64,000 nt of DNA, from IMG/VR virus record IMGVR_UViG_3300045594_000116, positions 96,001-160,000 of that record; one strand, given 5' to 3'. The stretch comes from a virus. Taxonomy: Duplodnaviria; Caudoviricetes. This document shows positions 9,582-47,684 of this stretch, piece after piece; position 1 is the stretch's first letter, and each line of letters starts with the position of its first letter. The position numbers were made by a program, and so were the translations under genes. Below the pieces are notes generated by a model, which was given only the letters and a program-made list of their open reading frames with translations, made no database searches and was not told the origin of the DNA.

Positions 9582-10649
9582 TCAGACGCCTTCGAAGTTG
9601 ATTGGATAATGGGTAAAGTATCGCCCATTAATGTATTTCATAGCATCAGGATCTTCAAGCTGTGTGAGGAATGCATTCTCAGTAGCTTCAGGCGTATGCT
9701 GATATATAGCAAGCTGTGTGTTAATATCAATCGCCATGAATCTATTGTAAAACGCCTCATACGACAATAGCCTTTGATTCTTAGCTTTACATTTCTCGCT
9801 TAAGAAGCGATAAGTCCCTTCAATATTGCCAATCATTTCTTTTGGCATATCTGATAAAAGATTTACCGATGTTACAATATCCTTACTACTGATCACATTC
9901 TTTTTAGGAATGCCACTCAGTACCATGATAGTTGAAATAAGCTTAGGATAAACAGGATGGTCTATCACTATCTTACGTGTCTCATGGGCAAATGCATTAA
10001 TAGCATTTACAAAATTGTAAGAATACGCAATCGTAGCTTTTTTCTTAGCATTGTACTTACGTCTGAATACAACAGTATCTTCGCAGTTTGCCGGCAAGCA
10101 ATACATATACTCAGATGAAGATATCACTACATTAGGGAATTGCTGAAATAATGGAATCGTAGTTATAAGATTCTTTATTATGACAGCGGGTTCCACCGTT
10201 CCAAACTTGAAATACACATCAGGCATATATGGAACAAGCATCTTTACAAACTCTAATGCCCGATCTACTTTATCACCTATCTCACTGTTAGATAATACAC
10301 GATCTCTATACTTAGAATTATACTCTGGGCAGTATCTTGAGATATTGATAGAGGTCATATTTGAATAAACAAATATAATCTGTGTCGTTACCCTATGACG
10401 AGTCCAAAAGTATTTTCTATAGTGCGATACCATGTTTAAAATACACGATGAGATAAGCTCTATAGCATGACTAGTATTCAAATGCCGATATAGAGGAAGC
10501 AAAGCTTCATATAAGTCAATGAATACATTTACATGCTCAGCGCTAGACCCTTCAAATTCCAAACCTACCAATGTGTTCAGATGTTCATAGCGAATATACT
10601 GTCCGTACATAACTTGATCTAAAGGCATATCCTGATCATATCGCTGCAT
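9582..10649 (-). CDS. Hypothetical early protein, possibly a degenerate PIN/5'-3' exonuclease-like fold
   Basis: RBS AAGGAGG; N-terminal VNVFIDL strand is only a weak hint. Confidence 0.4.
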   Translation of the reverse strand: MQRYDQDMPLDQVMYGQYIRYEHLNTLVGLEFEGSSAEHVNVFIDLYEALLPLYRHLNTSHAIELISSCILNMVSHYRKYFWTRHRVTTQIIFVYSNMTSINISRYCPEYNSKYRDRVLSNSEIGDKVDRALEFVKMLVPYMPDVYFKFGTVEPAVIIKNLITTIPLFQQFPNVVISSSEYMYCLPANCEDTVVFRRKYNAKKKATIAYSYNFVNAINAFAHETRKIVIDHPVYPKLISTIMVLSGIPKKNVISSKDIVTSVNLLSDMPKEMIGNIEGTYRFLSEKCKAKNQRLLSYEAFYNRFMAIDINTQLAIYQHTPEATENAFLTQLEDPDAMKYINGRYFTHYPINFEGV

Positions 10650-11561: not shown

Positions 11562-12371
11562 TTAACGACGAACGTTGCTGAAGCCCATGCTATTGCTAAC
11601 CGGAGCTCCGATGATCGTTGCATTCGCCTTGATCGAAGATTCTTCGTCGATCTGGATGATCTCGAAGGCGTAGTTATTTGCATAACCAGCCTGAACCTGA
11701 CCCTGCTGCATCTGCAGTTCCGGAACCATGCCCAGAGCACGCTGAACAGTGATCATGTAAGATACATGATTGCCCTCCTCCGTCTTGCTTCCATAGAAGC
11801 GATTGACGAAGTTAACAATGTCCACATTCACCTTGAATGCGATCTGCGGGCTCGGGTTACCGAATACAGTGCCTAGGCAGATTTCCTGAGAAGCAGCACC
11901 CCAATTGATCTTCGGGATGTTACGCTCATGATCAAAGCCATTGCGGAAGTTCGGACCCACGAACGGAGTCAGAGCCTCTTTAGCTTCCTGCGTCAGGCGA
12001 TAGCGCGTGGACGTAGTTTTTGCACCATTCCAACGTGCGATCTTCGCCATCATATCGCCACCCTTGTTCGGAGCGATTGTCGACTCGAGCGCAACGAGTT
12101 TCTTCGTTTTCTCAGCTGCATACGTGTCCAGCGGCGTGAATGCAATTTCTGCAACGATTACGCCGTTGTTGTTTACGTTGATGCGGGAACCCATGTAATC
12201 CGCAAACGTAGAACCAAATACCTCATCGATCATGTCGGTGAGCTGTTTGGTGTTGATCAACGAAACTGCGTGAGTCATTTCAAACTTACGCGGCTGAATG
12301 TTGATCGTGCATACCCCCGTGTTTTTCTCCTCGTTGTTGACCTTCTGATTGTTGTTTTTCTGATTCATCAT
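11562..12371 (-). CDS. Hypothetical early protein with highly-expressed-type codon usage
   Basis: RBS AAAGGAGG; early promoter 12468-12476; hairpin 11511-11533 downstream. Confidence 0.7.
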   Translation of the reverse strand: MMNQKNNNQKVNNEEKNTGVCTINIQPRKFEMTHAVSLINTKQLTDMIDEVFGSTFADYMGSRINVNNNGVIVAEIAFTPLDTYAAEKTKKLVALESTIAPNKGGDMMAKIARWNGAKTTSTRYRLTQEAKEALTPFVGPNFRNGFDHERNIPKINWGAASQEICLGTVFGNPSPQIAFKVNVDIVNFVNRFYGSKTEEGNHVSYMITVQRALGMVPELQMQQGQVQAGYANNYAFEIIQIDEESSIKANATIIGAPVSNSMGFSNVRR

Positions 12372-12493: not shown

Positions 12494-13393
12494 TTAACGG
12501 TTAAATTTAGCGATCTCCTCGTCACTCAAATGTTGAGGCTTTATAAATTCACCTTTCTGATACTGTACAACGTAAACGCTGCCACTATCATCTCTGATGA
12601 GCATAAAGTCTGTAATGATTTTGGAGAAGTCTAAATCATACCAATATGGGATAATTTCTACTTCAAGCATGTAGTGAGAAATCTTATCCTGAAGGAAATA
12701 TAACTGAGTAAGGGAAAGACCTTCTCTTCCAATATCATCAGTCATTACCAAACCAGGCATCGAAGTGATCTCAAACATACTATCGAACATATCCCAGAAT
12801 GAATGTCTCTCAAACAGTTCCTTAAGGGAACTGCAGAAATCATCATTCTTTTTAAACTTTTGTTTCGTATCCAGTAAAATCTTATTGGCTGCAGCCTCAG
12901 CACTGGATGCGATATCGAGAATACTATCAATTGTATCATCGCGATAAATAGAAATATTATAAGACTTGATAAGTTTATCAAAGCCTTTAGCATCATCGTA
13001 GCTTACATAACTCGGACAATTATCTCTTGAAAGAGCTACACCGAATCTTTTAATACCAGAAAAGCTCTGGTAATATGGATTGACGATATTCTGTCGGCAC
13101 ATCGCATAATCTGTATTCTCCGATGCCCTGCCGATCATAGCAACTACATCTTTTAATGCATTATGTTTTCCGACCTGCACGATGGCGATAATGAATACGC
13201 CATGTGGGTTAAGAGGACGATATTCTTTGATTTCTTCTACTGAGTATTCACGACGCGTATCAGGTTCGCCGTCCATTTGTGCAATCATTACTTTATCTGA
13301 TTTACGACGAATAACTCGGATTACTTCGACTTCATTGTCGTTAATGGCTTTATAAAGTTTAAGCCCGTTATAGTTTGCTTGTCTTTTTGGCAT
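12494..13393 (-). CDS. Hypothetical early protein
   Basis: RBS AAAGGAG; early promoter 13464-13473. Confidence 0.65.
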   Translation of the reverse strand: MPKRQANYNGLKLYKAINDNEVEVIRVIRRKSDKVMIAQMDGEPDTRREYSVEEIKEYRPLNPHGVFIIAIVQVGKHNALKDVVAMIGRASENTDYAMCRQNIVNPYYQSFSGIKRFGVALSRDNCPSYVSYDDAKGFDKLIKSYNISIYRDDTIDSILDIASSAEAAANKILLDTKQKFKKNDDFCSSLKELFERHSFWDMFDSMFEITSMPGLVMTDDIGREGLSLTQLYFLQDKISHYMLEVEIIPYWYDLDFSKIITDFMLIRDDSGSVYVVQYQKGEFIKPQHLSDEEIAKFNR

Positions 13394-13528: not shown

Positions 13529-13575
13529 ACACAGATATTCCCTCTACCCCATATAGGTAGAGGGATATTCTGTGT
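13529..13575. terminator. Extended hairpin of the CCCTCTACC/GGTAGAGGG family
   Basis: ACACAGA..TCCCTCTACC-ccatata-GGTAGAGGGA..TCTGTGT; same core at 23663-23687 and 54745-54771. Confidence 0.65.
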
Positions 13576-13579
13576 TTTA

Positions 13580-15433
13580 TTACTTGATTCCGATTATTCT
13601 TTTAAAAAGATCGATAGTGTAAAGTAACGTACTTCTACGAATCTTTACTCTATCATCAGAGAATGGACTATCCTGATATTCCTTAAGCATATCAAAGTTT
13701 CTATCATATTTCTGTACGATAGCCATATACTTTGTAATATCATTGATAATCTTTGCCCTAGCTTTATGATAATCCTGTATCTTCTTTTTACTACGTTCCT
13801 GATGGATTTTCTCCTCAAGAATCGTATTCAGATACCAAAGTTTGCAAAGGCAATATTTCATTCCTTCTACGTTCTTTGCTTTCTCATATTGTTTAAGAGC
13901 AAGATGTGTTGTAGAATACTCAGCTTCAAAGTCTACATCGAGACCCTTATCTATAAGAAGGTTTCCATCATCATCAAACTGAATAGGCCATTCTTTTGCT
14001 TCCATAATGCATGAGAATGAATCTATCAATGTATTCTCTGTTTTAGGAGCATTAGACTTGGAAAGCGAATCGATATAGCTCAATACCTTTGCCGCCGAAT
14101 ACTTCTTAGGTGATCCATAGAATACCTTATAGATGAATGCCGAATACTTCTTTTTCTTTACTGCTCTATTCAAACTTCCAGGAGATACCATATTAGAACC
14201 AATCTTAGTGATATCTACATCTGCAAGCTTGAGCATGCTATCCACAAACTGAGAGCATACCATCTTTACGTTATCAACGTAATTGATATTGAGCGGTATA
14301 GTAATCAGATTGATAAGAGAGTAGTCAGCATGTGATTCTTTCAGCTTTTCTATCTTCTGCTTAAGCTTATTGTATCTTTCCTTAGATACAAATACTGCAT
14401 ATACTTGAATAGCTTTATCAGATGTGCGTTCTTTCAACGATTGTGCCTGAAACCCACCAGGGAAAGAGAAACTATACAAAGTTTTCATAGATGCATCAAA
14501 TGATAATGCTGAATGTGAGTATACTGACTTAGTAGCTATTCTAGTCAATTTATTGAAAAATGTCTCAGAATTGAAGAAAACTACGTATAGTGGGTACACA
14601 TCAAGGGAAGTCTCTGTAAACGCGTTTTTCGCATTTTTGACACTCTCAGATACATCCAAAATGGTGTAATTAGAAACTGATTCTGAGATGATCTTGCTAA
14701 CTCTTTTGCTGGCAAAGCGTTTAGTAGATTCATTATATTGTATTTCTGGATTCCATCCTAGATCAAGTATAGATTGCTTAACAGCATCTACATCTTTCTT
14801 ATCAGAAGTCTTAGAAAGTTTCATATACAGTTTCTTTAAAGTATTATCCCAATCGGTGTATCTGGACATGGTAGATCCAAATCCATTCAGCCTATTGCAA
14901 TAATGCTTATACCATTCCGCTGCATCCAAGTCAGTTTTGAATGCCTCTTTAGAGTACATAGGATTTTCACTCAAGTATGACACTCCAAGGTGCTCCATTT
15001 CGTTAGATGTGAAGTAAGGAGTGCCGAGAAATCTTACAGAATTATCGGCATCGACCCTATCAACTATATCTTCTGTAGCACATTCAGAAAGATACTTACT
15101 ACGAATATCAATAGGTTTCATAAGAGCTGCCGACTCAAGAGCCGGGCTGTATCTCTTATCAAACAAACTATCATTGATATCGTTCTTTAAGAATTCATGC
15201 GCCATTTTCTCATAGCGAGTTCTGTTATCAAAGTTAAATAACTCTATCGATTTCCAGTCAGATTCATGCTGAAAATCTATAGGCATTTCTTGATATGAAT
15301 TGAAGTCCTGCTTAAGCGATTTAAAATCTGGATACTTACTATACAGAAGAATCTTATTGTTACCAATACGCCATTTCTTAACTTCTCTATCGCCAAGCTC
15401 TACATGCTTGATTTCTTCATCAATGTTTAACAT
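13580..15433 (-). CDS. Virion-associated protein with an inserted permuted papain-like (YiiX/YebB-type NlpC/P60) domain
   Basis: His before Cys: YSHSALSFD...MVCSQFVDSML. ATG at 15433 overlaps the end of the upstream polyprotein. Several hydrophobic-x-E-S/A/T sites. Confidence 0.65.
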   Translation of the reverse strand: MLNIDEEIKHVELGDREVKKWRIGNNKILLYSKYPDFKSLKQDFNSYQEMPIDFQHESDWKSIELFNFDNRTRYEKMAHEFLKNDINDSLFDKRYSPALESAALMKPIDIRSKYLSECATEDIVDRVDADNSVRFLGTPYFTSNEMEHLGVSYLSENPMYSKEAFKTDLDAAEWYKHYCNRLNGFGSTMSRYTDWDNTLKKLYMKLSKTSDKKDVDAVKQSILDLGWNPEIQYNESTKRFASKRVSKIISESVSNYTILDVSESVKNAKNAFTETSLDVYPLYVVFFNSETFFNKLTRIATKSVYSHSALSFDASMKTLYSFSFPGGFQAQSLKERTSDKAIQVYAVFVSKERYNKLKQKIEKLKESHADYSLINLITIPLNINYVDNVKMVCSQFVDSMLKLADVDITKIGSNMVSPGSLNRAVKKKKYSAFIYKVFYGSPKKYSAAKVLSYIDSLSKSNAPKTENTLIDSFSCIMEAKEWPIQFDDDGNLLIDKGLDVDFEAEYSTTHLALKQYEKAKNVEGMKYCLCKLWYLNTILEEKIHQERSKKKIQDYHKARAKIINDITKYMAIVQKYDRNFDMLKEYQDSPFSDDRVKIRRSTLLYTIDLFKRIIGIK

Positions 15434-18400
15434 TTTTCTTAGCCACCACCTTAGCTGGAATATCTTTGATCCTCTGGTAATATGCTGTACGCATTCCAGT
15501 CTTTGCGTTCTTAGCATAGACACCATACTGATTCTCCATCACTACGACATCTTTCAATCCTTCAGTGATAGCATCTGCTTCTTTAATCATATGAGGATTA
15601 GTAAGAGGGAATTCATGATCTTTCTTACCCTTAATAGACTTAAGCTGCTCAGCTACAGTCTGTAGATATGAGGTAGCTTCAGATCCAATATCAATTGGAG
15701 ATACCTCTGTACATGATTCATCACAAAGAATCTGATCATCTGATAACAGCTTCTTTCCAGTAAGGGCTTCATATATGAATCCTCTAGGTTGAACAGTTCC
15801 TATAGCATTTTCGATAATACGTAATCCTTCTGGATCAGATCTGAATTGGAATACACGAAGCTTTCTTCCTTTTAAGAACTCCTCCGTATTCTCTTTCTTC
15901 ACCATACCAGATTTGTCTTGCGTAAGAATATTCTTAGTCAGGATATCATTGGAGACTGCATATCCTTCTACATTCATATCCATGATTCCAGTACCAGTAT
16001 CACGATGTACTGGTCCGTACTGGGTTACATATGATAAGTCAGGTGCAGGTGTCATCCCACCAGGGCCTGCAAACTCATTCAAGTCCATATCTGCTCCTTC
16101 CCGAATAGCATCCCGATGATTGAAGTAGAAGTCAATTGCCTCTTCATGCTCCGCTCTCCAATCAATGGTATCTACTCCAACATATTTTGCTTTCTGATAG
16201 AAATCGTCTTTGTCGACGTCCTCTATATGACCAGTAAACTTCTTAGCGTATTCTGCTACGAATATGAATGTAAGACTGCCTTCGTATTTCAATCCCAGTG
16301 GCCAAAGTTTCTTCTTTTGCCATTCAGGATATTTTCCTTCATAATTCTGGAAGTAAGTCATTCCAGTATATGATCTATTCTTAGTTACGACTAAGGCCTC
16401 TTCATTGCATTCAGCCTCAGCTTGCTCATCTAATGCTCTGCCTTTATCTAATCCACCACCAGGAAGTTTATAGTTGGTTCCATACTTGTTAAGATTCTTA
16501 GGATCTTGCATTTCTACAAGTACATCCCCATGCTTATCGAATATAAGAGTTTCTACTCTTACACGATACTGCTTGTTGTCATACATGATATAAGGATTAT
16601 CTATACCTTCAGCAGACTTAATATATTTGATATCTTTCGGCTTAGGAATAGGAACTAAATTTGCTTCCATTGCGATAGAATCTCTGTAGGTATTCATAGG
16701 TGGAACAGGCATAGGAATAAGTTCCATCCACTCTGTATCCATATTATATGCAACTAAGAATATCTTCTCTATCTCATCCTCTCCAAAGAGAATCAGATAA
16801 GATAACCAAAGATCTTTAGCCATCTGAATATGCATAATACCAGAGTAGGTAAAGAGTTTATCTCTCATAGTATCTACTAACCCATTACCGGTAGCCATAG
16901 ATTGAATATAGTTACAAAGCTGATTAGCATTGTATCTCTTATCTGCATCAGTATCTTTAGGATTGAAGATGATAAGGAACTCATATTCCTTTCCAGCTTT
17001 TTCATAGAAAGAAGCAGTAGCCTTGCCGATGATACTAAAGAATTTCTCGCTAGGATCGAACCATTCTTTGAATCTATCCTTTCCAGCACATGCCAGATTA
17101 GCAAGAAGAATCTCAGCCCCTTCAGACTTTGGAGAGATAAAGTAGTTTATACGTTCTTTATGTTCTACTCCTACAGATTCTATCAATGATTCATAGTTAG
17201 GATCTGTGCTATGATATTCTCCTTCATAAGTAGATACTGATTCCTGCATACCAACGTTATCTATAACGATGGTTCCAGTGTCATATATGTGATTCATATA
17301 TTTAACGGTTGTAAGACCAAATTTTCTAGATGGTTTATACTTCATAAGAAGATTTGGCATCTTTTCTTCATTAAGTTTACTTACGTATACAGCTATCATA
17401 TCTTGCTCATTGTCAAAACAATGAACTCCTTTAAAGCTATACCATGAAGATTCTACCACGTAAACTTTATTACCTTTCATACATGCTACCCATGTATGTG
17501 TAGGATTAACTCCATCATCACTATTGAATTGATGATAGTATAATGAATATTTACCATTGCTTAAATCTGCAGTGGTATTTTTATATCCCATTTTCTCTAG
17601 ATACTTAGCTTCATAGTCTGCATAATCCCAGCATATACCATATCCAAGCTTTTCAAATTCAGCCGGAGACTTAGTTTTATAATCTTTAAAGTAGTCATCC
17701 CTCTCTTCATAAGAGAAGTTTGCCTCTAAATTATTATATAACCTTACCAATTCCTTAGGACCTTTGGCAGGTTTTGCGTTTTCTAATACCATATTATTAT
17801 CACCTCTATAATTATAATATATAGGTGAAAGGTTAGTTGACTCTCCTTCATAAGTAGATACCGAGTCATCGAGTTCTCCAGATTCCATCATAGAATCATT
17901 CGTCCTATTAAACCAATCTGATGCAGCATATATCAACTTAGCTTTTATAGACTTTGGAAGGTGCGTTAGCTTTTCCTTCAAGTTGTCGTACATATCGTTA
18001 TGCATCTCAGGATTTGGAGAATCGTATTTGCAAATAAGAGATGGCATATACTTAGATTTGAACATCATATCATCTCTAAATATCTTTTTATCTCCATAGA
18101 ATTTATCATAGATTGGATACTCCTTGGTATCCTGGATAGCTGCAAAATATTTAATATCACATAAATCATTGTCGCTAGCTTTTCCTATGATATTCTTTAC
18201 ACTCATAACATGCTTCTTCATCATCTTAAGTTGTTCATTTCTTACATCTTCAGGCTTAGAGTATGGGCCCTTCATTCCATAAGAACGTTTCCCTTGATAA
18301 TTAAAAACATAGTACAATCCATCTTTTTCTTTATAGATGCACATAAAGTGCTGGAACATATGATACTCTTTATCTCCATACTTACGGAAGTATTTGGAAG

Positions 18401-20828
18401 TCCTAAGGATATAGTTTTCGATATGTTTACGTTCGCAGAAGAAATGCATGAGCAAAGCAAAGTCGATACACGTTCCAAGCTTCGTTCTCAATATATCATC
18501 AGGCCAATAGAAATGTATTCCTTTGCTACGGTCTTTAGCATTAAACTCTTTAGGCCAATCACACTGATTCACCTTAACCCAATTAAGAACGTCGGTTGGA
18601 GATTGCATGTCCTTACAGAAGGCATCGAAGCTAGTATACTTCTTTTTGTATCTATCAATACCAGATTCATTGATGGTAGACTCTCCAAATATTCCTTTTA
18701 TAGATTTGAGTATGCTGCTCAACTTGATTTTATCTAGTTTAGAAAGAACCTCATCGAGCCACGTAATCTTATCAGTATGGCATTCTTTATTCACCTTAGC
18801 AAACATATCCCAAATTTCAGGTATACGTTTAACTATCTCTGCTTGGGTGGCATACCTATCATTATAATAATCATCATATACATTCAGATTTTCTTTTTGT
18901 ATACGAGAAAACACCTTTTTAGCATGATACTTTCCAGGCATCAGTTTTAAGAAAAGAGAAGTGATGTAGAAATAATACTTTTTATATGCCGCTTCTGCTT
19001 CTTCGTATGAGCCAAATGGTCCCTGGAGTGAACCTTCATTGTTAGCACGATAATTAAAGATATAGACTCCAGAATCTTTTATTTTGTATAGGCATACTAT
19101 ATGACCTAAATACTTAGTATCTTTATCATTAGTCGCTATAGTTCCTATATACAGCATTCTATTTTCTATGCTATTACGATTACAAAGCAGACGCATAAAG
19201 ATGGCATGATCGAAGCAAATTCCAGCATGATTTTTGATTATTTCATCAGGCCAAGCTACGATAACATCATCTTCATTCGTACTATGAATGGCTAATCTTC
19301 TTTTTACCCTCTCATCTTGCGTAAACCATCTGATATTATTTACGTTATACCAGTCATTCAATTCACTAGGAGTTTTGATAGATTTACATAAATCATTAAA
19401 CCCAGAATACCTTTTGGTAAACTTACTACCTACAGTTTCATCAATAAGATTCTCTTCAAACATATCATCTCTCATACGATTTGTAATAGAGATATAGTTC
19501 CTATACCCATTTACTATCTTAGGAATTCTTTTCATTGCTAAACTTGGCGTTCCATAGTCTCTTTTGATTCTACGGATTATAGACGTAGTTAATGAAGTTC
19601 CCTTGATGACAAAAGCAGCATTGTTAAGTAATGGAGAATGATATTCATACATATCCAGTATAAAAGCTCCCTCTATTACAAATCTTTCATTAGAGCCTAT
19701 AATAAACTTGATATAGTCTTCCATAAGCTTTTTACGAAAGATCTTATCATACTTTACCTTTTTAGCAATATTAGTATTTACTTTAGTATCACCGTACCAA
19801 TCTTCCATTCTCCATGGAATTTTATCTGCTGGAATACTATCAGCATCGGTTAGCCACCAGAGTATTTTATCAGTATCTATATGATGAGCATCATATTCAT
19901 CTGACAATTCTTCCGATAACGTGGATTTACCACTTCCAGATAATCCCACCATATAAAGTACAGAAAGTTCTTTATTTTTCCACGCATCCAAATTCAATAC
20001 TAAGTCTTTTTCTGAAAAGATGATAGGAGTGCCTTCTTGCAGCATATTTACTTCTTCATTGACATTGATGATGACCTTCTTATTCTCTTCACTATCATCA
20101 ATCATCTGAGCTTTCAATTCTGCTACGATACCAAGCAGCTGGCTGAAATCGTTATCAGTCAATCTAAGGTAGTTGAATTTACCCATATTGGTAATCATCT
20201 GCTCTTTGGCTAACTGCTTTTCTCTATAAGAAACCATCTCTCTGTTATTAGGATTGCTGCCTCCATCCTTAACTTCAATCACAAGATTGAATGGGATAAG
20301 AAGGATATCGGTAATCCATTTAAGTTTCTTTCCTTTGTAGATATATTCTATCGTAGGCCCAGGAGAGAGAATATCAGTGCTTTTGAATCCCATCACTTTA
20401 TCCATGAATTCAAGAGCCTTCTCTTCGTATTTACCAGTAAATACATGATATCCACCATCAGTGAATTTATACTTACCAGATATACGTCTGTTAGCCAGCA
20501 TCTTTTCTTGCTGCTCTGGGTCATCAAGAAGAGTAGTCTTACCATGTACTCTAAGCATATTCTTCTTATAAGCATCTCGCAAAGCTTTCTGGCACTGTGG
20601 TCTACCACAGAGCCGATCATATTTGCAAGCTGTTTCATTCCATTTCGTTGGTCTCTTGCATACAACGCAAGTACCATGATCTTTATGATTGATAGTGTTG
20701 AATACTATCTGATTCGCTGTCATACCTTTTGGAATGCATTCCTCATGCTCTTCCTCAATATGAGATCCTAAGTTTTCTCTAGTAGCTCTATAGCTGCAAA
20801 AGGGACACTTATACGTTTTCGTACTCAT
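15420..20828 (-). CDS. 1802-aa polyprotein: Zn fingers + PD-(D/E)xK nuclease-like, P-loop kinase, 3x transglutaminase-like, unknown domain, Nudix, C-terminal domain
   Basis: CPFC..H..H; WITDILL..IEVK; GLSGSGKS; GICFDHA/GHIVC, GTCIDFA/QHFMC, GICWDYA/THTWV; LPGGGLDKGRALDEQAEAECNEEAL. RBS GGGAGG and late promoter 20853-20864. Confidence 0.75.
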   Translation of the reverse strand: MSTKTYKCPFCSYRATRENLGSHIEEEHEECIPKGMTANQIVFNTINHKDHGTCVVCKRPTKWNETACKYDRLCGRPQCQKALRDAYKKNMLRVHGKTTLLDDPEQQEKMLANRRISGKYKFTDGGYHVFTGKYEEKALEFMDKVMGFKSTDILSPGPTIEYIYKGKKLKWITDILLIPFNLVIEVKDGGSNPNNREMVSYREKQLAKEQMITNMGKFNYLRLTDNDFSQLLGIVAELKAQMIDDSEENKKVIINVNEEVNMLQEGTPIIFSEKDLVLNLDAWKNKELSVLYMVGLSGSGKSTLSEELSDEYDAHHIDTDKILWWLTDADSIPADKIPWRMEDWYGDTKVNTNIAKKVKYDKIFRKKLMEDYIKFIIGSNERFVIEGAFILDMYEYHSPLLNNAAFVIKGTSLTTSIIRRIKRDYGTPSLAMKRIPKIVNGYRNYISITNRMRDDMFEENLIDETVGSKFTKRYSGFNDLCKSIKTPSELNDWYNVNNIRWFTQDERVKRRLAIHSTNEDDVIVAWPDEIIKNHAGICFDHAIFMRLLCNRNSIENRMLYIGTIATNDKDTKYLGHIVCLYKIKDSGVYIFNYRANNEGSLQGPFGSYEEAEAAYKKYYFYITSLFLKLMPGKYHAKKVFSRIQKENLNVYDDYYNDRYATQAEIVKRIPEIWDMFAKVNKECHTDKITWLDEVLSKLDKIKLSSILKSIKGIFGESTINESGIDRYKKKYTSFDAFCKDMQSPTDVLNWVKVNQCDWPKEFNAKDRSKGIHFYWPDDILRTKLGTCIDFALLMHFFCERKHIENYILRTSKYFRKYGDKEYHMFQHFMCIYKEKDGLYYVFNYQGKRSYGMKGPYSKPEDVRNEQLKMMKKHVMSVKNIIGKASDNDLCDIKYFAAIQDTKEYPIYDKFYGDKKIFRDDMMFKSKYMPSLICKYDSPNPEMHNDMYDNLKEKLTHLPKSIKAKLIYAASDWFNRTNDSMMESGELDDSVSTYEGESTNLSPIYYNYRGDNNMVLENAKPAKGPKELVRLYNNLEANFSYEERDDYFKDYKTKSPAEFEKLGYGICWDYADYEAKYLEKMGYKNTTADLSNGKYSLYYHQFNSDDGVNPTHTWVACMKGNKVYVVESSWYSFKGVHCFDNEQDMIAVYVSKLNEEKMPNLLMKYKPSRKFGLTTVKYMNHIYDTGTIVIDNVGMQESVSTYEGEYHSTDPNYESLIESVGVEHKERINYFISPKSEGAEILLANLACAGKDRFKEWFDPSEKFFSIIGKATASFYEKAGKEYEFLIIFNPKDTDADKRYNANQLCNYIQSMATGNGLVDTMRDKLFTYSGIMHIQMAKDLWLSYLILFGEDEIEKIFLVAYNMDTEWMELIPMPVPPMNTYRDSIAMEANLVPIPKPKDIKYIKSAEGIDNPYIMYDNKQYRVRVETLIFDKHGDVLVEMQDPKNLNKYGTNYKLPGGGLDKGRALDEQAEAECNEEALVVTKNRSYTGMTYFQNYEGKYPEWQKKKLWPLGLKYEGSLTFIFVAEYAKKFTGHIEDVDKDDFYQKAKYVGVDTIDWRAEHEEAIDFYFNHRDAIREGADMDLNEFAGPGGMTPAPDLSYVTQYGPVHRDTGTGIMDMNVEGYAVSNDILTKNILTQDKSGMVKKENTEEFLKGRKLRVFQFRSDPEGLRIIENAIGTVQPRGFIYEALTGKKLLSDDQILCDESCTEVSPIDIGSEATSYLQTVAEQLKSIKGKKDHEFPLTNPHMIKEADAITEGLKDVVVMENQYGVYAKNAKTGMRTAYYQRIKDIPAKVVAKKNVKH
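17218..17861. repeat. Perfect 20-bp direct repeat flanking the third transglutaminase module
   Basis: TCTCCTTCATAAGTAGATAC at 17218-17237 and 17842-17861, both encoding VSTYEGE on the minus strand. Confidence 0.9.
17790..17823 (-). promoter_or_regulatory. Internal early promoter + RBS + in-frame ATG inside the polyprotein
   Basis: Minus strand TATATATTAT aattat AGAGGTGA taataat ATG (17792, Met1013). Confidence 0.75.
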
Positions 20829-27162: not shown

Positions 27163-27208
27163 CGAGAATGCCATTTTGGCATTCTCGGTTTTTTGTGTTA
27201 TATATTAT
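27163..27208 (+). promoter_or_regulatory. Terminator (27163-27187) followed by early promoter (27199-27208)
   Basis: CGAGAATGCC-atttt-GGCATTCTCG plus T tract; then TATATATTAT. Confidence 0.7.
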
Positions 27209-46880: not shown

Positions 46881-47684
46881 TTAGCTCATAGCTATTAAGT
46901 CATATGGTGTTCGTGTGTATCGTCTATTTATTTCATGAACAGTACATCTGACATCTACTGCATTAGTTCTAGGGAAGAAATACCCTTTACAACTAACCTG
47001 ATAGTAATCTTCTATCGTATCGATGATAGGAGTTAACTGATTAGGATCTATAACGGCATTTCCTCTCTTAACAACCCAGTGTTCTGGCGGTGTTGTATAA
47101 CCATCCTTCTGGGTGCTAAGAAGTACAGTTGTATAGTCCCTGAATAAGCGATCATCATTTATCTGAGCTATATACTTATTCATGATCTTTGATACTAAAA
47201 CTGCAGGGGTCATCGAAATATATCCAGTGTTCCCATCTTTTTGAAGCAGCTCGTATTTACCCTTCAAAATATCAATGTTGAGAGGTCCAAGACATCTCTG
47301 AAGATAATTAGCATGATCGATTATCCACTTGATAGCATTCTTATTATTAGAATCCTCTATCCAGTTATGATATGCTATATCATTGTGATATCTTATCATA
47401 TTGATATCCTGATCAAGATGAGATTTCTCATGCGCTACTATATACAGTATGCTAGTAATCATATCTTTATCTTCTTGATATTGACACTCTTCAACACAGT
47501 AATTGTATAGACGCGGTATATGGAATATAATGCTTCCTGTACTAGACGATGACCAGGCCATCGTACCTTTAGTTGGTGTACATTGAAATTTGACCTTATT
47601 ACATTTCACCATTGGGTTCAATGCACCTTCTATCAAATTAGAAATATACATGATTGTTCTAACGATCTTTTCTTCTGTTATCAT
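46881..47684 (-). CDS. Early protein with HExxH zinc-metallopeptidase motif
   Basis: IVAHEKSH...E; early promoter 47709-47717; RBS AAGGAGG before ATG 47684. Confidence 0.6.
   Translation of the reverse strand: MITEEKIVRTIMYISNLIEGALNPMVKCNKVKFQCTPTKGTMAWSSSSTGSIIFHIPRLYNYCVEECQYQEDKDMITSILYIVAHEKSHLDQDINMIRYHNDIAYHNWIEDSNNKNAIKWIIDHANYLQRCLGPLNIDILKGKYELLQKDGNTGYISMTPAVLVSKIMNKYIAQINDDRLFRDYTTVLLSTQKDGYTTPPEHWVVKRGNAVIDPNQLTPIIDTIEDYYQVSCKGYFFPRTNAVDVRCTVHEINRRYTRTPYDLIAMS

What the first reader, a model, noticed from the sequence alone, without database searches (positions are those of the whole stretch)
17218..17861. A whole early gene cassette (promoter, RBS, ATG) captured in frame between 20-bp direct repeats
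Seen: a perfect repeat GTATCTACTTATGAAGGAGA (minus strand) at 17861-17842 and 17237-17218 brackets transglutaminase 3. Just inside the first copy, the coding sequence reads tttcaccTATATATTATaattatAGAGGTGAtaataatATG. That matches the intergenic early promoter at 27199 (TATATATTATAATTAT) and has a short-leader layout like the gene at 47684. The 624-bp period preserves frame. Inference: a footprint of how cargo is gained or lost, by duplication-flanked insertion or repeat-mediated excision. It also predicts two products from one ORF: the late 1802-aa precursor and an early 790-aa C-terminal protein starting at Met1013.
Basis: partly seen in the sequence, partly recalled or inferred. Interest (0 to 1): 0.85.

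Follow-up and report, generated by a model that had tools for sequence, protein, structure and literature searches.

The report
Early gene swallowed by phage polyprotein
Inside a giant multi-enzyme protein gene of a jumbo phage, one enzyme module still carries the promoter, ribosome site and start codon of a once separate gene and sits between two identical 20-base linkers; related phages lack it and keep a single linker, so this shows how such proteins gain and lose parts.

Summary
A perfect 20-nt direct repeat (24/26 with flanks) lies at 17842-17861 and 17218-17237, 624 nt apart and in frame. It is unique in the 229.5-kb genome.

It brackets a transglutaminase-like Cys-His-Glu module inside an 1802-aa multi-enzyme ORF of an AR9-like jumbo phage. 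Right after copy 1 the ORF reads through an early-promoter-like 16-mer, a GAGGTGA ribosome site and ATG (Met1013).

Gain and loss at the linker is real:
- One metagenomic allele (P0003) has one linker copy and no module.
- A second module (kinase) is absent from a 98.6%-identical phage and is also flanked by short repeats.
- Free-standing 170-230-aa homologues begin and end where the module does. One sits in an early-promoter-headed operon of a related jumbo phage.

The promoter copy is doubtful as an active promoter. It is the only one of 45 such sites lying deep in a long ORF, and the only one with A instead of G at +1.

Best reading: a whole early gene was captured in frame by recombination at a short linker, and its start signals are probably fossil. 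The nested early 790-aa product is untested (about 20%).

This is a new variant of known themes (polyvalent proteins, repeat-mediated module shuffling). Interest is moderate.

The parts
15420..20828 (-). 1802-aa modular ('polyvalent'-type) ORF. Domain order: Zn-finger endonuclease (1-265), P-loop kinase (266-455), transglutaminase-like 1 and 2 (about 456-985), linker, transglutaminase-like 3 (1013-1196), linker, unknown region, Nudix (about 1421-1524), conserved C-terminal domain (1586-1802).
   Evidence: The ORF is under purifying selection against the 98.6%-identical allele in L001: most nucleotide differences are silent.
17842..17867 (-). Linker repeat, copy 1. The 20-nt perfect core is 17842-17861; with its flank it is 26 nt at 24/26 identity. 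It encodes D-SVSTYEGE.
17218..17243 (-). Linker repeat, copy 2. The 20-nt perfect core is 17218-17237. It encodes E-SVSTYEGE.
17807..17823 (-). AR9-type early-promoter look-alike: core TATATATTAT, a 6-nt spacer, and then A at the expected +1 position (17807). It is translated as part of ...SPIYYNYR....
   Evidence: The consensus is from PMC5312081.
17790..17806 (-). Translation-initiation-like region: GAGGTGA (17800-17806), a 7-nt spacer, and ATG (17790-17792), which is Met1013, in frame with the long ORF.
   Evidence: Only 6 of 1584 internal in-frame ATGs in long ORFs have such a ribosome site. The same AGAGGTGAT..ATAAT-ATG layout heads real genes elsewhere in the genome.
17241..17792 (-). 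Transglutaminase-like module 3 (Met1013-Glu1196), with Cys1066, His1111 and Glu1126. It is co-linear with whole free-standing 170-230-aa proteins.
19453..20048 (-). Second variable module (P-loop kinase, 582 nt, 194 codons) with its flanking imperfect direct repeats: 20035-20048 and 19453-19466, encoding DMLQE and DMFEE. The module is absent from the allele in L001.

Best explanation
The 1802-aa ORF is a modular multi-enzyme ('polyvalent'-type) protein gene of an AR9-like jumbo phage. Its central part is a variable array of enzyme modules joined by short, disordered, acidic linkers. The 624-bp unit is one such module. It was once a free-standing early gene for a transglutaminase-like cysteine enzyme. 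It was taken up whole, from promoter, ribosome site and ATG to its last sense codon, at the linker encoding SVSTYEGE. That linker now stands on both sides of it. The most likely mechanism is recombination at this short linker homology, either unequal exchange between co-infecting alleles or integration of a small circle carrying one linker copy. The same repeats allow clean in-frame loss, which leaves one linker copy. The former 5' region is now translated as a disordered linker segment. Its promoter is probably dead or weak because it has A at +1. Shown: the repeat, its uniqueness, the frame, the allele with one copy and no module, a second repeat-flanked module indel, free-standing homologues with matching ends, and the resemblance to genuine promoters and initiation regions. 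Inferred: the direction of the event (capture rather than only loss), the recombination mechanism, virion delivery of the protein, and inactivity of the promoter.
For: - Repeat. It is not chance and is unique in the genome. Given the same peptide, identical codons at all six full codons have probability about 0.002 under this genome's codon usage. The two copies therefore share DNA ancestry rather than only peptide conservation.
- Alleles. P0003 is 98-99% identical in the N- and C-terminal parts. It joins the first transglutaminase-like module to the C-terminal part through exactly one linker copy, with copy 1's left flank and copy 2's right flank. Identity in P0003 jumps from 77% to 99% at the linker, which marks a recombination breakpoint.
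- Other modules. The kinase module is missing from L001, and in the window it is flanked by an 11/14-identical direct repeat. In another lineage, P0004 has a kinase module between two copies of a 7-8-residue peptide (7 identical residues plus a 1-residue gap), and P0008 has one copy and no module.
- Homologues. 340 homologues of the module were found, many of them 170-230-aa stand-alone proteins. Their Met1 aligns within about 10 residues of Met1013, and their ends lie within about 20 residues of Glu1196.
- Related phage. L007, a 332-kb phage with the same promoter motif, has a free-standing copy in an operon headed by such promoters.
- Promoter motif. It is TATATATTAT-N6-G, the same as the AR9 early consensus (PMC5312081). 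Of 45 sites, 43 are intergenic, one lies near the end of a 148-aa ORF, and this one is the only site deep inside a long ORF.
- Start signals. A ribosome site before an in-frame internal ATG is rare, 0.4%. A 21/22-nt match links the stretch to the promoter-leader at genome position 6225.
- Structure. In the AlphaFold model, residues 982-1019 and 1199-1210 are disordered and the module core is well folded.
- AR9. The homologous endonuclease is a separate 238-aa gene followed by an annotated early promoter and small genes.
Against: - The single-copy junction is therefore known only at protein level.
- P0003 also lacks the second transglutaminase-like module, so it is not the exact one-step counterpart.
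- No allele with the second module, one linker and the C-terminal part was found.
- About 1-3 chance copies of the 10-nt promoter core are expected in a genome of this composition. Tyr/Asn-rich peptides (ATA TAT TAT AAT TAT) can produce it. L007 has a promoter-like 10-mer inside its own stand-alone gene, encoded by G-I-Y-Y.
- The way a 20-26-nt duplication arose at the first insertion is not explained.
- Virion packaging rests only on the annotation of a phiR1-37 homologue of the N-terminal domain as a structural protein.
Confidence: 0.7

Rival explanations
1. Live nested gene. The internal promoter and/or the internal ribosome site is used. Besides the full-length protein, the phage would then make a 790-aa protein from Met1013 (transglutaminase-like 3, unknown region, Nudix, C-terminal domain). 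It would be made early from the virion RNA polymerase promoter, or at any time by internal initiation on the long mRNA. This is compatible with the capture story; it differs only on present function.
For: - The core, the 6-nt spacer and the A/T flanks are a perfect 16/16 match to a real intergenic promoter.
- The PWM score of 23.4 bits lies within the range of the intergenic sites, 15.5-35.6 in leave-one-out scoring.
- The ribosome site and spacing are like those of real genes.
- The stretch is fully conserved in L001.
- In AR9, one working early promoter deviates at the start point, and 13 late promoters lie inside ORFs (PMC5312081).
Against: - G at +1 is the most informative position of the motif (1.9 bits) and is present in all 44 other sites.
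- The AR9 virion polymerase is reported to be very sensitive to single deviations (PMC5312081).
- Conservation in L001 says little at 1-3% divergence.
- No terminator-plus-promoter pairing is present here, unlike the intergenic sites examined (at window 13473 and 27199, and at genome 201090).
Confidence: 0.2
2. Functional linker, not a recombination scar. SVSTYEGE would be kept on both sides of the module because the peptide itself is needed, for example as a spacer or a processing signal next to the MME|S and MQE|S sites. The DNA identity would come from gene conversion. The promoter look-alike would be a by-product of a Tyr/Asn-rich linker.
For: - The peptide is conserved in three alleles.
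- Both copies lie in predicted disordered segments.
- Every codon used is the commonest for its residue.
- Chance promoter-like 10-mers from I-Y-Y codons do occur.
Against: - The motif occurs nowhere else in the genome in any frame, and at no other junction of this protein.
- The probability of codon identity is 0.002.
- This reading does not explain why the ribosome site and in-frame ATG sit exactly where stand-alone homologues start.
- It does not explain the allele with one copy and no module.
- The homologous module in P0008 has quite different flanks.
Confidence: 0.1
3. Target-site duplication made by a transposable or homing element that carried the module.
For: Direct repeats flank an inserted segment.
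Against: - The 624-bp unit is filled by the enzyme domain.
- There is no transposase, homing endonuclease or intein-like part.
- There are no significant terminal inverted repeats. The best inverted pair is 16/22 and lies outside the unit, at a level expected by chance.
- To my knowledge, 20-26 nt is longer than usual target duplications.
Confidence: 0.03

Closest known systems
Polyvalent proteins of phages and conjugative elements (Iyer, Burroughs, Anand, de Souza, Aravind 2017, PMC5512222; jumbo-phage survey PMC7824862)
   Same: It is a very large phage protein that strings together unrelated enzyme domains (nuclease, kinase, papain/transglutaminase-fold domains, Nudix; GNAT and M23 in sister alleles). 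Domain content varies between relatives.
   Different: In the passages of that paper I searched, nothing describes DNA-level linker repeats at module junctions or a promoter, ribosome site and ATG embedded in frame. No zincin-like processing peptidase was detected here. Virion delivery is not shown.
PeSL cassettes of T4-type phages (Arbiol et al. 2010, PMC2839356; Comeau et al. 2014, PMC4122927)
   Same: Short repeated sequences flank small accessory genes. Recombination between them inserts, deletes or swaps the genes and can release small circles. An early promoter travels with the gene.
   Different: In those phages the repeats are intergenic promoter-terminator units, and the cargo stays a separate gene. 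Here the repeat is a coding linker, and the cargo, with its promoter, is read through in frame as part of a larger protein.
AR9 early (virion RNA polymerase) promoters, AAATATATATTAT-N6-G (Lavysh et al. 2017, PMC5312081)
   Same: The 10-nt core and 6-nt spacing are identical, and there is a short leader with the ribosome site just after the start point. This genome has about 45 such sites.
   Different: The site has A instead of G at +1. It lies 3 kb inside an ORF and has no upstream terminator.
AR9 gp232 / phiR1-37 g237 'endonuclease fused to N-terminal Zn finger'
   Same: Residues 1-240 are 31-39% identical to it. The phiR1-37 protein is annotated as structural.
   Different: In AR9 it is a stand-alone 238-aa gene followed by an early promoter and small genes. 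Here it is the head of an 1802-aa fusion.

Membership tests
Polyvalent proteins (PMC5512222) | One large polypeptide combines several unrelated catalytic or effector domains. | tested here: met
   Matches were found to endonuclease phrog_15137, P-loop kinase families, PF04473/PF01841 and PF00293. Sister alleles add GNAT and M23 domains.
Polyvalent proteins (PMC5512222) | The protein is encoded by a phage or conjugative element. | tested here: met
   The genome is 229.5 kb. It has AR9-type promoters, an RNA polymerase beta-like gene, and homologues of AR9, PBS1, S6 and phiR1-37.
Polyvalent proteins (PMC5512222) | The protein is packaged in the virion and delivered with the DNA. | not testable with these tools
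   The only evidence is the annotation of the phiR1-37 homologue of the N-terminal domain as a structural protein.
Polyvalent proteins (PMC5512222) | An associated processing peptidase (MPTase/zincin-like) is frequently present. | tested here: inconclusive
   Pfam gave no metallopeptidase match. Three papain/transglutaminase-fold domains are present and could serve this role, and the next gene has a ClpP/crotonase-like match.
AR9-type early promoter | The core is TATATATTAT with a 6-nt spacer. | tested here: met
AR9-type early promoter | G is the start point, 6 nt after the core. | tested here: not met
   The base at 17807 is A. All 44 other sites have G.
AR9-type early promoter | The promoter is intergenic and ahead of a gene. 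| tested here: not met
   The site lies 3005 nt inside the ORF. 43 of the 45 sites are outside long same-strand ORFs.
AR9-type early promoter | A mapped transcript 5' end appears early in infection. | not testable with these tools
   No RNA data are available.
PeSL-type mobile regulatory cassette | The repeated unit is a promoter plus a terminator stem-loop between genes. | tested here: not met
   The repeat is a coding linker, and no stem-loop lies next to it. It works like a PeSL but is not a member.
Transglutaminase-like / papain-fold cysteine enzymes | A Cys-His-Asp/Glu triad is conserved in the right order. | tested here: met
   Cys1066, His1111 and Glu1126 are invariant in 16 sequences.
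Transglutaminase-like / papain-fold cysteine enzymes | The profile or fold match is above threshold. | tested here: inconclusive
   PF01841 scores 30.8 bits for the whole protein (cut-off 23) but only 16.7 bits for the module alone. The best Foldseek match has E 7e-3 and probability 0.96, to the CPR-C4 protease, followed by vasohibins and LapG.
Transposon or homing-element insertion with target-site duplication | The element has its own mobility gene and defined ends. | tested here: not met

The most novel reading that the evidence does not exclude
The modules are dual-mode cassettes. Each can exist as a stand-alone early gene or, by recombination at a short linker, as an in-frame part of the injected polyprotein, keeping its own promoter and ribosome site. 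The phage would then supply the same enzymes twice: pre-made in the virion, and newly made from Met1013 early in infection. The linker repeats would act as a domain-level exchange system, a protein-coding counterpart of PeSL or integron-like cassette shuffling.
Probability: 0.15. Interest if true: 0.75.

Novelty: new variant of a known kind. Interest (0 to 1): 0.5.

Why it matters
Large multi-enzyme 'polyvalent' proteins are thought to be a main weapon that phages inject into their hosts. How their domain sets change so quickly has mostly been inferred from comparing architectures. This locus shows the DNA-level footprint directly:
- short in-frame linker repeats at module borders;
- natural alleles with and without the modules;
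- a module that still carries the promoter, ribosome site and start codon of the separate early gene it once was.

It therefore links two gene pools of jumbo phages, small early genes and virion-borne polyproteins. It also offers a simple experiment: look for deletion junctions, circles and an internal transcript or protein. If the internal start is active, it would also be a clear case of a nested gene that gives an early and a late form of the same enzymes.

Tried and rejected
The DNA of P0003, P0004, P0006 and P0008 could therefore not be read, and the single-copy junction is known only as protein.
- Megablast of the gene and tblastn of the module against 50,697 phage records found nothing. 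Only the N-terminal endonuclease has relatives there.
- Scans of viral, metagenome and genome contigs with the C-terminal part gave only the same IMG/VR contig plus two distant loci. A degenerate search for the linker in viral contigs found only that contig.
- A search for shorter, split forms found none.
- The idea that YHSTDPNY after copy 2 is the displaced C-terminal tail of the module was rejected. It resembles the tail of the L007 protein, but the alignment shows the module's own ...IVIDNVGM tail is the homologous one.
- The idea that the linker is a general cleavage motif was rejected as stated, because the motif is unique in the genome.
- A transposon-type origin was rejected.
- AR9 gp233-235, downstream of the endonuclease, are not homologous to any module.
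- Repeat searches in the distant alleles L003, L004 and L008 gave only weak, uninterpretable pairs.
- A sequence search of the PDB gave nothing.

Full report
**1. The observation**

The 20-mer occurs exactly twice in the window, both on the minus strand, at 17842-17861 and 17218-17237. None of 100 dinucleotide shuffles gave two matches. It also occurs only twice in the whole 229,508-bp genome, and its peptide (STYEGE) is found nowhere else in any frame.

With its flanks the repeat is 26 nt at 24/26 identity. The spacing is 624 nt, or 208 codons. Both copies lie in one ORF, 15420..20828(-), 1802 aa, and encode SVSTYEGE at residues 989-996 and 1197-1204.

Directly after copy 1 the ORF reads through three elements:
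- TATATATTAT plus AATTAT (17808-17823), a 16-mer identical to the intergenic one at 27199;
- GAGGTGA (17800-17806);
- after 7 nt, ATG (17790-17792), which is Met1013, in frame.

**2. What the gene is**

The genome is a jumbo phage of the AR9/PBS1/phiKZ-related kind. Three results show this. Residues 1-240 match the 'endonuclease fused to Zn finger' of AR9, PBS1, Staphylococcus S6-like phages and phiR1-37, where it is annotated as a structural protein. The window holds an RNA polymerase beta-like gene. The genome uses the AR9 early-promoter motif (see section 5).

The ORF strings together these parts:
- Zn-finger endonuclease;
- P-loop kinase;
- two paralogous transglutaminase-like domains;
- a third, different transglutaminase-like domain;
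- an unknown region;
- a Nudix domain;
- a conserved C-terminal domain.

This is the architecture described as 'polyvalent proteins' (PMC5512222; PMC7824862).

Sister alleles from metagenomes keep the N-terminal endonuclease, or the C-terminal domain, or both. They carry other sets of modules, including GNAT, M23 peptidase and other kinases.

**3. The module really comes and goes at the linker**

P0003 (1276 aa) is 98% identical to the window protein over residues 1-265 and 99% identical over the C-terminal 600 residues. It goes from the end of the first transglutaminase-like domain, through one copy of ...LDDSVSTYEGE, straight into YHSTDPNY.... That is copy 1's left flank joined to copy 2's right flank, with no third module and no second module either. 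Identity jumps from 77% to 99% at that point, so the linker is also a recombination breakpoint.

A 98.6%-identical phage (IMG/VR contig, L001) has both linker copies and the whole module, but lacks the 582-nt kinase module. In the window that module is bracketed by an 11/14-identical direct repeat, encoding DMLQE and DMFEE.

In a further lineage, P0004 has a kinase module between two copies of a 7-8-residue peptide (7 identical residues plus a 1-residue gap), and P0008 has one copy and no module. Short in-frame direct repeats at module borders, with one-copy alleles lacking the module, are therefore a recurring feature of this gene family.

The two copies of the 20-mer share DNA ancestry. Given the peptide, identical codons at all six full codons have probability about 0.002 under this genome's codon usage.

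**4. The module was a gene of its own**

A full HMMER search found 340 homologues of the module. Many are stand-alone proteins of 170-230 aa, and many others are embedded in large multidomain proteins.

In an alignment of 15 stand-alone proteins, their sequences begin within about 10 residues of Met1013. They end within about 20 residues of Glu1196. Cys1066, His1111 and Glu1126 are invariant.

An AlphaFold model of residues 982-1210 is disordered over 982-1019 and 1199-1210, with pLDDT below 50. It is well folded in between. Fold matches are weak but consistently point to transglutaminase-like cysteine proteases: CPR-C4, vasohibins and LapG.

In a 332-kb phage contig (L007) that uses the same promoter motif, a 201-aa homologue is a separate gene. 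It has a GGAGGTGA ribosome site and lies in an operon headed by two such promoters, with no terminator in between.

In AR9 itself the endonuclease is a separate 238-aa gene followed by an annotated early promoter and small genes. Those small genes are not homologous to the modules here.

**5. The embedded start signals**

The phage's early-promoter motif is TATATATTAT, A-N4-T, then G at +1. This is the AR9 consensus (PMC5312081).

- There are 24 exact cores and 45 sites at 17 bits or more on a position weight matrix.
- 43 of the 45 lie outside long same-strand ORFs, and several follow terminators.
- The internal site scores 23.4 bits, rank 35 of the 45.
- Of the two sites inside a same-strand ORF, the other lies near the end of a 148-aa ORF. 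The internal site is the only one deep inside a long ORF.
- It is also the only one with A instead of G at +1, which is the most informative position.

The ribosome site is unusual for an internal position. Only 6 of 1584 internal in-frame ATGs in long ORFs have one. The AGAGGTGAT..ATAAT-ATG layout heads real genes elsewhere in the genome. A 21/22-nt match links the stretch to the promoter-leader at genome position 6225.

From these rates I roughly estimate the chance of a promoter-like site plus ribosome site plus in-frame ATG within 30 nt. It is about 2e-3 for the whole genome, before counting that the stretch sits at a domain border next to the repeat.

Two cautions apply. By base composition, one to three chance copies of the 10-nt core are expected per genome. 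Also, I-Y-Y codons can produce the core, and L007 has such a case inside its own gene.

**6. Interpretation**

The best reading (confidence about 0.7) is that a complete early gene was captured in frame at a short linker. The linker now flanks it on both sides and allows clean loss. The former 5' region is tolerated as a disordered linker.

How the first duplication arose is not known. Possible routes are:
- unequal exchange between alleles that share the linker;
- integration of a small circle carrying one linker copy, as with PeSL mini-circles (PMC2839356);
- template switching during replication.

Whether the internal promoter or ribosome site is still used is open. I put it at about 0.2. 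AR9 has one working early promoter that deviates at the start point, and it has internal late promoters. But its virion polymerase is reported to be sensitive to single changes.

A purely functional-linker reading is unlikely (about 0.1), and a transposon reading very unlikely (about 0.03).

**7. Novelty**

Polyvalent proteins, and repeat-mediated module shuffling in phages, are both known. The combination seen here is new as far as the papers I read go: coding linker repeats, natural with-and-without alleles, and an early promoter, ribosome site and ATG frozen in frame. I therefore class it as a new variant of a known kind, of moderate interest.

**8. Limits**

- There are no RNA, proteome or host data.
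- Only two close alleles have DNA available.
- 'Late' expression and virion delivery are inferred.

Noticed in passing
window 16086-16103 (-): There is a second internal ribosome site plus in-frame ATG: GGGAAGGAG, 6 nt, then ATG (Met1581). It lies just before the conserved C-terminal domain (1586-1802). In P0004 and P0008 a related domain stands at the very N-terminus of the protein. This may be another fossil or live gene start.
   Followed up: partly
whole genome; in the window e.g. 12477(-), 13473(-), 24271(+), 27199(+), 36022(+), 40423(+), 45924(-), 47718(-), 51316(-), 54671(-), 55778(+): About 45 AR9-type early promoters (TATATATTAT, A-N4-T, G+1) were found. They are often followed by ATAG or by a ribosome site within 15 nt (short leaders), and several come right after a terminator hairpin, which resembles the PeSL arrangement.
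   Followed up: partly
window 13539-13565, 13473 and 12477: A 10-bp palindromic terminator-like hairpin ends the polyprotein operon. The next two genes on the same strand (12494-13393 and 11562-12371) each have their own early promoter.
   Followed up: no
window 13580-15526 (-): A 648-aa gene overlaps the end of the polyprotein ORF by 107 nt. It has a ClpP/crotonase-like match (phrog_1128, E 5e-13), so it is a possible processing protease. A gene of similar length (669 aa) follows the homologous gene in L003.
   Followed up: no
window 15420-20828, by module: Third-position GC differs by module: 0.27-0.28 for the kinase, first and third transglutaminase-like modules, against 0.38-0.39 for the N-terminal part and the second transglutaminase-like module. 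Divergence from L001 is lower in the centre (0.9-1.3%) than at the ends (2.3-2.8%). Both point to a mosaic history.
   Followed up: partly
window 18667-18690 and 17879-17890 (-): The second transglutaminase-like module is flanked by a short GAATCTGG repeat (NESG and MESG). At 8 nt this may be chance.
   Followed up: no
L007:3432-3450: A promoter-like TATATATTAT with A at +1 lies inside the stand-alone transglutaminase-like gene of a 332-kb phage, encoded by G-I-Y-Y. This shows that such look-alikes can arise from coding sequence.
   Followed up: partly
P0007 (1772 aa, ENA metagenome): This protein starts with a transglutaminase-3-like domain, then has Nudix, M23 and a transglutaminase-1-like domain. 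By eye only, it runs into what looks like an RNA polymerase beta-type C-terminal region.
   Followed up: no
L004:9783-9804 and 10413-10434: In a distant 1425-aa allele from a 200-kb human-gut contig, a 19/22-nt direct repeat (NIAAEI and NIAEDV) with in-frame spacing of 630 nt follows the endonuclease domain. It may be another linker-flanked module.
   Followed up: no
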